A stretch of 64,000 nt of DNA, taken from positions 5,828,001-5,892,000 of the forward strand of contig OX597819.1 of the NCBI GenBank assembly GCA_951406725.2. Direction: 5' to 3'. The translations under genes and the position numbers were made by a program. Shown piece after piece: positions 20,623 through 55,509 of the stretch (its first letter is position 1; each line of letters begins with the position of its first letter). This DNA is from Octopus vulgaris. Its lineage: Eukaryota. The notes below the pieces were generated by a model. The model saw only the letters and a program-made list of their open reading frames with translations, was not told the DNA's origin and ran no database searches.

Positions 20623-21160
20623 ATAAATCTTAGGGTAGCAAAAAATTAAGAAAAATTCTTTGCTACCAGTGATCTAGCGAGAAGAAAAAACTAGTCAATA
20701 GACTATATATTATTCATATAAAAATACAGTATATTTCTAAACACATAAGAGATGGCCATAACAGGACATCTGACTCGCTAGAAAGAGTAGTTAAACTACA
20801 AACCACTAAATAGGGGTAATTTCGAAAGGGAATGAAAAATAAAAACATTTACCCTATTTTTCTTGGACTATGCATTTTGAAAAATTATAACTTATAAACA
20901 CGAGGCATGTTCTTTATCGCCTCGTGTCTATATGTTAAACTTGACTTCCTGCTGATGAGAGCTTCGCCAATTGTAAATTATTTTATTTACGAACGATTGC
21001 TTGAAACTATGCATAGTCCAGGAAAAATAGGGTAAATGTTTTTATTTTTCATTCCCTTTCGAAATTACCACTATTTAGCGGTTTGTAATTTAACTACTCT
21101 TTCTAGCGAGTCAGATGTCCTGTTATGGCCATCTCTCATGTGTTTAAATGTACACTGTAT
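20623..21160 (+). mobile_element. HHR-bearing Penelope-like non-autonomous element with inverted arms
   Basis: 20726-20875 is the reverse complement of about 21010-21160; homologous to the 1224 element. Confidence 0.8.
20946..21024 (+). ncRNA. Type I hammerhead ribozyme, intact core
   Basis: ttcctg-CTGATGA-gagc...gctt-GAAA-ctatgcatag-TC-caggaa; 6 bp stem I, 10 nt palindromic stem III, GUC triplet. Confidence 0.92.
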
Positions 21161-25051: not shown

Positions 25052-25070
25052 TATACATATATTTATATAT

Positions 25071-25141
<71 letters not shown>

Positions 25142-25252
25142 TACACACATATATATATACACATATATACAGATATATATATACATATATATATACAGAT
25201 ATATATATATATACATATATATATACATATATACAGATATATGTATATATAT

Positions 25253-25490
<238 letters not shown>

Positions 25491-25524
25491 ATATTTATAT
25501 ATATATATATCCATATATATATAT

Positions 25525-25984
25525 AATGAAGGGTGAAATTAATTAATTTGGAATAATTATCAATTACACCAAGTAGTCTTCGGCATGTAAAAGCCTCATT
25601 CGAGGAAAATTTAAGTAATACTAAGCTCGCTCTGATACTGAGTAGAGTTGGTGCCTTCTAGTATCTCAAAATTCAATATACAATCATTCATGATTGTTTG
25701 TATCCTGCGCTGATGAGAGAAGAAGTTTGGGTAAGGTAGAATTATCTAATTCTTATGCTTTCCTAAGACTTGATTTCGAAACGTACGTCCGTAGGTGACT
25801 TAAAACTGTATGATAGATTGCCGTCAATTCATTCTCTCTTACCTGTTTGTGTTTGCCTTTCAAATGGTGTGTTTTTACTGAGATCTCCCTTTTAGTAGAA
25901 GAAATAGCTATAATCTCTTTGACTGCTATTTCTAAATTCGGTGTGCGGTAAGGCAATTCGTTGCTAAACCCTTAATTGCTTAGC
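25525..25984 (+). mobile_element. ~460 bp HHR-bearing element embedded in giant (TA)n tracts
   Basis: Unique island between TA arrays; homologous to 54894-55266. Confidence 0.82.
25704..25795 (+). ncRNA. Type I hammerhead ribozyme, intact core
   Basis: cctgcg-CTGATGA-gaga...tttc-GAAA-cgtacg-TC-cgtagg; extended stem II. Confidence 0.92.
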
Positions 25985-27358
<1,374 letters not shown>

Positions 27359-27789
27359 TTCTCTTTTTTCTTTTTTTCTAGTTTCAGCTCAGATCTGCGG
27401 CCATGCTGATATATATTTTTCCGGTCTTGTTTCGTATACATTCGCTGCTTTCTTCCAAGGAATGTAATGCTCTTAGCTTATCTTACCTTGGGGTTGGCCA
27501 GATTGGAGCAATCTCGAGTATATCCAGCCGAAATTGCCAAGATAATCTAGAACTCGACTGAGGATGGAAAACTCTGAATGATTCGTCCTTGCTTTCCTTG
27601 TATCGTCTGTCTGGAAACTTTGTTAGCTGTTCGGCAAAAGAGACCAATAGAATAAGTACTAGGCTTACAAAGAATAAGTCCTGGTGTCGATTTGCTCGAC
27701 TAAAGGCGGTGCTCCAGCATGGCCATAGTCAAATGACTAAAACAAGTAAGAGTAAAAGAGTAAAAGGGAGCCACATCATTGTTTATCAT

Positions 27790-54369: not shown

Positions 54370-54775
<406 letters not shown>

Positions 54776-54831: not shown

Positions 54832-54895
<64 letters not shown>

Positions 54896-54991
54896 CTCTG
54901 ATACCATGAGTTGAGGTCATATCTTCTAGTGCCTTCAAATTTAATACACAATTATTAATAATTGAGCCGCAATTATCTATAATTGAAGAGT

Positions 54992-55082
54992 CCTACGCTG
55001 AGGAGGAAAATAGTCAGGTAAGACATAATTATTTAATTTTTATGCTCTACAATGACTTAATTCTGAAACGTGCGTCCGTAGG
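54992..55082 (+). ncRNA. Type I hammerhead ribozyme, intact core, in element 54894-55266
   Basis: cctacg-CTGAGGA-ggaa...ttct-GAAA-cgtgcg-TC-cgtagg. Confidence 0.9.
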
Positions 55083-55264
55083 TAACTTAATATAGAATGA
55101 TTTCCGTCATTTCCTTCTCTTTTGCCTGCGTCGTTTGTTTTTTAAGTGGTTTGGTTTTACTGGGATCCCCCTTTTAAGTAGAAAGAATAGGCAAAACTTT
55201 TTGACTGCTATTTCTAAATTTGGTGTGTGGTGAGGCAAATCGTTGCTGAACCCTTAATTAATTA

Positions 55265-55303
<39 letters not shown>

Positions 55304-55509
55304 CATACATGCATACATGCGTACACACACACACACACATATATATAAATAAAGTATGGGGTATTAGTTCACAGGTGATTAGGTACGCTAGGTAAGTGCT
55401 GTAACGAATTACTGGGGTTCCAAGGTTATTGCAAATTTCCGATGCATCAGATATATAATAGTTAAACGAGACGTCAAACATTAAGGCAAGGTTAACATCT
55501 CAAGTCATA

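What the first reader, a model, noticed from the sequence alone, without database searches (positions are those of the whole stretch)
25525..25984. Diverged pair of (TA)n-targeted ribozyme elements (25525-25984 and 54894-55266)
Seen: two clearly diverged homologues, each flanked by TA arrays on both sides, both keeping intact cores. Stem I is cctgcg or cctacg against cgtagg, and the stem II base is gaga/tttc versus ggaa/ttct. Inference: purifying selection on the ribozyme and TA-specific insertion, as for microsatellite-targeting Penelope clades.
Basis: partly seen in the sequence, partly recalled or inferred. Interest (0 to 1): 0.7.

Follow-up and report, generated by a model that had tools for sequence, protein, structure and literature searches.

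The report
Truncated retrozyme copies in TA repeats
These are two cut-short copies from two branches of a large family of small protein-free jumping repeats that sit in TA microsatellites and carry a predicted self-cutting RNA motif; they were likely pasted in by a Penelope-type enzyme, and the kind is already known.

Summary
In detail: two homologues (73% by BLAST) with type I hammerhead cores, each between TA arrays. They are not a special pair. Each is a 5'-truncated copy from a different subfamily of one non-coding 584-599-nt tandem repeat (1,102 exact hits of one ribozyme 18-mer genome-wide). TA targeting is real: 53 of 56 insertions have a TA run beside them, against 8% background. Insertions show Penelope-like marks: partial tandems, inverted truncated arms and two fixed 3' ends. 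Selection acted on the source lineages and on the whole RNA fold (13 of 164 pairs compensated), not on these loci. The core (12/12 identical, p about 0.05) is not clearly more conserved than the 3' block (59/66). Copy 2 has lost the G-C pair at the base of helix II, both copies are predicted to misfold, and 385 of 906 motif hits carry a U4C core. No autonomous partner was found; cleavage and circles are untested. It is a new member of the animal non-LTR retrozymes / non-autonomous Penelope-like elements. The scan found such families in this genome before, probably this one too.

The parts
25052..25525 (.). (TA)n array left of copy 1
   Evidence: period 2, 237 copies, 90% matches
25526..25626 (-). 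Inverted arm of copy 1: unit positions 581-586 then 1-96, ending at the second fixed 3' site (the roughly 100-nt tail)
25624..25983 (+). Sense arm of copy 1: 3' 360 nt of the 586-nt subfamily A unit, 5'-truncated at unit position 227, ending at fixed site 1
   Evidence: best other copies 99% identical
25704..25795 (+). Type I hammerhead of copy 1: helix I 25704-25709/25790-25795, CUGAUGA 25710-25716, 61-nt helix II 25717-25777, GAAA 25778-25781, palindromic helix III, predicted cut after 25789
25918..25983 (+). Conserved 3' block, 59 of 66 positions identical between the copies; related stretches occur in other non-coding TA-inserted repeats
25985..27359 (.). (TA)n array right of copy 1
   Evidence: 688 copies, 96% matches
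54835..54893 (.). (TA)n array left of copy 2
   Evidence: 29.5 copies
54894..55265 (+). Copy 2: 3' 372 nt of the 599-nt subfamily B unit, 5'-truncated at unit position 226, single arm ending at fixed site 1
   Evidence: best other copies 94-96% identical
54992..55082 (+). Type I hammerhead of copy 2: CUGAGGA 54998-55004, 60-nt helix II with G-U at its base (55005/55064), GAAA 55065-55068, predicted cut after 55076
55266..55307 (.). (TA)n array right of copy 2
   Evidence: 21 copies, 90% matches

Best explanation
The two elements are 5'-truncated copies from two subfamilies of one non-coding, roughly 590-nt tandem repeat with a type I hammerhead motif, likely inserted into (TA)n by the enzyme of a Penelope-like retrotransposon acting in trans. 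Shown: tandem units, no long reading frame, TA flanks, two fixed 3' ends about 105 nt apart, variable 5' ends, inverted second arms. Inferred: a source array is transcribed into a highly folded RNA; the hammerhead cuts it, probably as a dimer through its palindromic helix III; a GIY-YIG endonuclease nicks (TA)n and the two target strands prime reverse transcription at the two sites on one RNA; copying runs through the cut site, so the template is either a re-ligated circle or an uncut multimer. Selection acts on the RNA of the source lineages. These two copies are likely inert.
For: Units of 586 and 599 nt in tandem, longest stop-free frame 72 aa, GC 36-37%. 1,102 exact 18-mer hits, 0 for the reversed control. 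TA run of 10 nt or more within 30 nt: at least one side 53 of 56, both sides 34 of 56, at 3' ends 68 of 78; background 1,653 of 20,888. 141 of 160 arms end at one of two sites. Of 48 insertions with two outward 3' ends, 32 pair site 1 with site 2, none pair site 1 twice, one pairs site 2 twice, 15 have one other end; copy 1 is of the paired type. This matches the Penelope layout (partial tandems, inverted truncated copy, tail at one end) in PMC8557442 (passages). Only 2 of 52 unselected encounters with the cut site stop there, 1.07 expected. 13 of 164 pairs change on both sides, shuffles 6.3 +/- 1.8, slid controls 0-2. Folds predicted from one lineage are broken less often than chance by the other's changes: 18 against 26.4 and 14 against 30.0. 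Helix III self-pairs in both variants, -9.8 and -8.8 kcal/mol. Two young Penelope-like families with open frames of 1,312 and 781 aa, a C-terminal GIY-YIG-like region and TA-abutting ends exist in this genome.
Against: No autonomous element with homology to the unit was found in 60 loci from two searches, so the enzyme is unidentified. The tail is about 105 nt, not the 30-40 bp described for Penelope-like elements. Rfam gave no hammerhead match for copy 1 up to E 10. Cleavage, strand, RNA ends and circles are not shown. Long arrays are not clean prints of one monomer circle: three show 2- or 3-unit periodic variants private to the array, and one has a unit differing at 11 of 12 variable sites. 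The pair-count shuffle ignores relatedness, and the structure was derived from the same alignment.
Confidence: 0.85

Rival explanations
1. The ribozyme is now largely a passenger: the folded RNA and the two priming sites drive spread, and fast cutting is dispensable or even limits array length.
For: 385 of 906 exact motif hits carry U4C, a variant said to lower activity considerably in vitro (PMC3088659, passage). That subfamily has more multi-unit arms (19 of 53 against 10 of 88, Fisher p 0.001) and longer insertions (median 899 against 648 nt, p 0.045). The 3' block is about as conserved as the ribozyme.
Against: 11 of 12 core positions are invariant across subfamily consensuses and position 7 takes U, G and A. 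The same passage says U4C keeps enough activity in vivo for a viroid. The length difference is one lineage contrast, confounded by age and by local block duplication.
Confidence: 0.3
2. The two loci are themselves under host-level purifying selection as working ribozymes, the strong form of the first reader's idea.
For: All 12 catalytic letters are identical in both copies; folded locally, helix I forms with probability 0.99 and 0.81.
Against: Copy 1 has only 2 rare substitutions against its subfamily consensus, too young to show selection; copy 2 has 9, one at the base of helix II. In the truncated copies helix I is predicted not to form (0.02-0.05 and 0.0), while in full units it does (0.98, 0.79, 0.97).
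Confidence: 0.04
3. The TA arrays are by-products: the element inserts anywhere and seeds or carries (TA)n, or the repeat is a satellite that spreads by DNA recombination.
For: TA also flanks many 5' ends (19 of 34); some long arrays show local block duplication.
Against: The unit holds no TA run; junctions inside arrays are TA-free; fixed 3' ends with scattered 5' ends and inverted arms point to target-primed reverse transcription.
Confidence: 0.07

Closest known systems
Animal non-LTR retrozymes (Cervera and de la Pena 2020, PMC7229834: passages and section 16 read; Li, Clavereau and Pollet 2026, bioRxiv 10.64898/2026.07.22.740005: parts 1-3 of 5 read)
   Same: Tandem non-coding units, one type I hammerhead per unit, GC under 50%, short helix III with a palindromic tetraloop, dispersed monomers and multimers, co-occurrence with Penelope-like elements.
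   Different: Unit 584-599 nt against 150-450 bp in the 2020 paper (51-972 bp in the 2026 preprint); helix II about 60 nt against about 4 bp; strict (TA)n targeting, two fixed 3' ends and inverted arms; a large U4C subfamily; circular RNA not shown here.
EN+ Penelope-like elements, insertion structure and (TA)n bias (Craig et al. 2021, PMC8557442: passages read; Cervera and de la Pena 2014, PMC4209133: passages read)
   Same: Partial tandems, inverted 5'-truncated copy, a tail at one end, microsatellite bias, hammerhead in the repeat.
   Different: No open reading frame; tail about 105 nt against 30-40 bp; full three-helix hammerhead rather than the minimal motif of metazoan elements; no homology to the autonomous families sampled. 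Naiads, the (TA)n-biased clade in that paper, lack canonical hammerheads.
Plant LTR retrozymes (as described in the introductions of PMC7229834 and the 2026 preprint)
   Same: Non-autonomous hammerhead retroelement with a monomer near 600 nt.
   Different: Type I not type III; tandem, no LTR pair, no 4-bp duplication seen.

Membership tests
Type I hammerhead ribozyme | Conserved core CUGANGA, GAAA, UH | tested here: met
   12 of 12 positions in both copies; a sister subfamily has U4C
Type I hammerhead ribozyme | Three helices around the core, helix I open | tested here: met
   Local constrained fold within about 3 kcal/mol of the minimum; helix I is predicted to form in full units but not in the two truncated copies
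Type I hammerhead ribozyme | Tertiary contact between helix I and helix II | tested here: inconclusive
   A U just after helix I and an A beside the 4-bp base of helix II are present in 115 of 115 aligned rows; that these form the known U-A contact is recalled, not tested
Type I hammerhead ribozyme | Self-cleavage | not testable with these tools
   needs an in vitro assay
Animal non-LTR retrozyme | Tandem repeats with a type I hammerhead in consecutive units | tested here: met
   Met by the family: 31 cut-to-cut monomers in fetched loci. The two window copies hold one ribozyme each and would not count as active by the 2026 preprint's two-unit rule
Animal non-LTR retrozyme | No protein coding, GC under 50%, no LTR | tested here: met
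   longest stop-free frame 72 aa; GC 36-37%; no tRNA gene in 3 loci scanned
Animal non-LTR retrozyme | Monomer of a few hundred bases | tested here: met
   584-599 nt: above the 150-450 bp of PMC7229834, inside the 51-972 bp of the 2026 preprint
Animal non-LTR retrozyme | Expressed as circular RNA | not testable with these tools
   only assembled contigs were offered
Non-autonomous Penelope-like element | Partial tandems, inverted 5'-truncated copy, tail at one end | tested here: met
   tail about 105 nt rather than 30-40 bp
Non-autonomous Penelope-like element | Insertion bias for microsatellites | tested here: met
   53 of 56 against 7.9% background
Non-autonomous Penelope-like element | Homology to the terminal repeat of an autonomous element | tested here: inconclusive
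   none in 60 loci, but these are the top hits of two capped searches with 8,103 and 6,136 candidates
Autonomous Penelope clade (Naiad, Neptune) | Reverse transcriptase and GIY-YIG open reading frame | tested here: not met
   no long frame in either unit

The most novel reading that the evidence does not exclude
This family is a natural experiment on what the ribozyme does in transposition: a viroid-like, fully folded 590-nt RNA is copied from two fixed priming sites by a Penelope-like enzyme, and ribozyme speed sets the size of the template, so the U4C subfamily leaves dimeric and trimeric RNAs or circles that are written into the genome as longer arrays with 2- and 3-unit periodicity.
Probability: 0.2. 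Interest if true: 0.65.

Novelty: new member of a known kind. Interest (0 to 1): 0.3.

Why it matters
As a pair of loci it matters little. The family is a useful test bed: U4 and U4C cores, an unusually long helix II that Rfam misses, compensated structure across the whole unit, and a strict two-site insertion rule allow a direct test of how animal retrozymes are mobilised and whether cutting is needed. Both points are proposed but not shown in the papers read.

Tried and rejected
Rfam: no hammerhead hit for copy 1; the 150 rows shown of 236 in the window-wide scan were microsatellite-driven matches; copy 2 was not scanned alone. Expression: no RNA holder listed on record; contigs from four runs guessed to be RNA cover 30, 30, 30 and 29 of 30 bins, but no silent control was laid, so nothing is concluded. 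Splice donor: a GGTAA motif in helix II suggested an intron, but no skipping joint appeared in those contigs; contigs cannot show absence. Primer-binding-site look-alike at 54895-54906 (resemblance to plant initiator tRNA, recalled): lies in a hairpin loop and is broken in subfamilies A, C and D, rejected. Per-copy core conservation (2 of 696 against 157 of 11,274) is not used, since the extraction pattern required part of the core. First crossing of the cut site (118 of 141 arms) is biased by the queries and was replaced. Single monomer circle as the only source of arrays: not supported. Inheritance of periodic variants from a source array: each of 3 variants occurs only twice, in its own array. 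Autonomous partner: not found; short matches in L070, L168 and L187 are not shared by other copies of those families and are taken as neighbours. Paper searches octopus + hammerhead ribozyme, retrozyme + cephalopod, retrozyme + microsatellite + insertion and Penelope + twin priming + inverted listed no description of this family; subscription papers, Repbase and Dfam were not searchable, and supplements were not read (those of PMC8557442 and the preprint may list octopus elements).

Full report
Observation. Both elements are present as described. A scan for type I hammerheads found four motifs in the window, two of them these. The copies align at 73% over 380 columns, and all four flanks are TA arrays. 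Rfam does not recognise copy 1, probably because helix II is about 60 nt long (inference).

What the copies are. The window lies at G000:C6:5828001-5892000 in a 2.8-Gb genome, cephalopod-like by my impression and by earlier notes. The best relatives of copy 1 are 97-99% identical and those of copy 2 are 94-96% identical (only 40 candidates scored in each). Tandem loci give units of 586 nt (A) and 599 nt (B) with no stop-free frame over 72 aa. Intermediate subfamilies C and D bridge them, with consensus identities of 80-95% between subfamilies. An exact 18-mer over the cut site occurs 1,102 times, control 0. Copy 1 is an inverted 101-nt piece joined to the 3' 360 nt of unit A; copy 2 is the 3' 372 nt of unit B. 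Their divergence is the distance between subfamilies, not divergence of two loci.

Targeting. I examined 26 insertions (4 overlapping loci dropped), 29 (1 dropped) and 56 of the 61 contig-C1 insertions (five already seen were not added; two others are shared with those sets). In the C1 set, chosen without regard to flanks, 53 of 56 have a TA run of 10 nt or more within 30 nt on at least one side and 34 of 56 on both; 68 of 78 3' ends and 19 of 34 5' ends do. Background is 1,653 of 20,888 windows in the same loci and 490 of 6,397 in the window.

Insertion anatomy. 141 of 160 arms end at the unit junction or about 96-121 nt beyond it, while 5' ends are scattered. 48 of 109 insertions have 3' ends pointing outward on both sides; 32 of these pair the two sites, none uses site 1 twice, one uses site 2 twice and 15 have one other end. 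Craig et al. describe partial tandems, an inverted truncated copy and a 30-40-bp tail at one end for Penelope-like elements (PMC8557442, passages). Reverse transcription does not stall at the cut site: 2 of 52 unselected encounters stop within 5 nt, 1.07 expected. The template is therefore a circle or an uncut multimer (inference).

Selection. Between the window copies the core is 12/12, helix I 11/12, inner helix III and loop 5/6, helix II 42/60, the 3' block 59/66 and the rest 144/191; the chance of 12/12 at the non-core rate is 0.048. Across six cluster consensuses, two of them near-identical B clusters, invariant positions are core 11/12, 3' block 59/66, helix II 37/61 and rest 140/198. 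Position 7 varies as U, G or A. Nine full monomers, chosen from 31, give a 164-pair consensus fold with 13 pairs changed on both sides, against 6.3 +/- 1.8 in shuffles and 0-2 in slid controls. Folds predicted from one lineage are broken less often than random placement of the same substitutions: 18 against 26.4 (6 of 500), 14 against 30.0 (0 of 500), 7 against 13.6 (10 of 500), 15 against 24.0 (1 of 500). Nine monomers from three loci fold 3.7-8.7 SD below 8 shuffles each. So the constraint covers the whole RNA of the source lineages.

Against a simple intact-core story. Copy 2 carries 9 rare substitutions, one turning the G-C base of helix II into G-U; copy 1 carries 2. Helix I is predicted at 0.99 and 0.81 locally but 0.02-0.05 and 0.0 within the truncated copies, against 0.98, 0.79 and 0.97 in three full units. 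Exact motif counts are 385 with U4C, 470 with U4 (A and C) and 51 with U4 (B). Perreault et al. note that U4C lowers activity considerably in vitro but supports viroid infection (PMC3088659, passage). Using 85 of the first 100 listed U4C hits (contigs C1-C3) and the first 100 U4 hits, multi-unit arms are 19 of 53 against 10 of 88. In the C1 set, median insertion length is 899 nt (16 U4C) against 648 nt (32 U4), p 0.045, with 8 lacking that part left out. This is one lineage contrast and exact matching undercounts older copies. Three long arrays show 2- or 3-unit periodic variants, and each of the three variants searched occurs only in its own array. Local block duplication after insertion is the simplest cause; multimeric circles with their own errors are not excluded.

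The enzyme. Two young Penelope-like families with open frames of 1,312 and 781 aa abut (TA)n. Neither shares DNA with the unit in 60 loci examined, so the partner is unidentified.

Comparison. It works like, and at family level meets the testable criteria of, an animal non-LTR retrozyme (PMC7229834, passages and section 16), which Li et al. argue are non-autonomous Penelope derivatives; in their assay 1 of 9 dimers cleaved (bioRxiv 10.64898/2026.07.22.740005, parts 1-3 of 5). The palindromic helix III fits the dimer model of PMC4209133 (passages), and both loop variants self-pair. Circular RNA and cleavage could not be tested. Earlier scan notes report many such families in this genome, one with roughly 590-bp monomers (e1-8666589); they are leads, not support.

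Verdict. Real, correctly seen, partly misread. A new member of a known kind, interest 0.3. The points worth following are the U4C subfamily, the whole-unit fold and the two-site insertion rule.

Noticed in passing
window 25526-25983, 54894-55265 and L024 (G000:C6:6084149, about 230 kb from the window's copy 1): These three copies, from two subfamilies, share the same C-to-G change at one homologous site that none of the other 112 aligned rows has; C/G swaps are 17 of 302 rare changes. The two window copies are also cut at nearly the same 5' position. Unexplained; chance or local conversion.
   Followed up: partly
window 20946-21020, + strand: A third type I hammerhead motif of an unrelated family, flanked by a long inverted copy of its downstream part.
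   Followed up: no
window about 1230-2030, - strand; core at 1525: A fourth hammerhead family with a long helix II (fold z -4.5) in a partial tandem ending at a TA array; its 3' part resembles the conserved block.
   Followed up: no
window 54471-54775: Perfect 107-bp inverted repeat arms just left of copy 2's TA array, possibly another two-armed insertion.
   Followed up: no
L087, L083, L085 and relatives: Young Penelope-like family with a 1,312-aa open frame, cysteine-rich linker, C-terminal GIY-YIG-like region, a minimal hammerhead-like motif and two 3' ends abutting TA. Neptune-like by recalled features.
   Followed up: partly
L167, L172, L186 and relatives: Second young Penelope-like family with a 781-aa open frame ending at (TA)n.
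   Followed up: partly
L159, L134, L129: U4C arrays with 3-, 3- and 2-unit periodic variants; the one tested per array is private to it. In L159 the outermost units of the two arms share one variant.
   Followed up: partly
L002:166-390, L070:242-759, L150:2524-2713, L168:478-750: More distant non-coding repeats share the 3' block and the junction hairpin, suggesting a common recognition module across families.
   Followed up: no
L003:1275-1860 laid on runs X16, X19, X20: Contigs of three other organism labels cover all 30 bins of the unit and join its end to its start; the listed majority differences miss the 12 core positions and include the helix III loop change seen in copy 2.
   Followed up: partly
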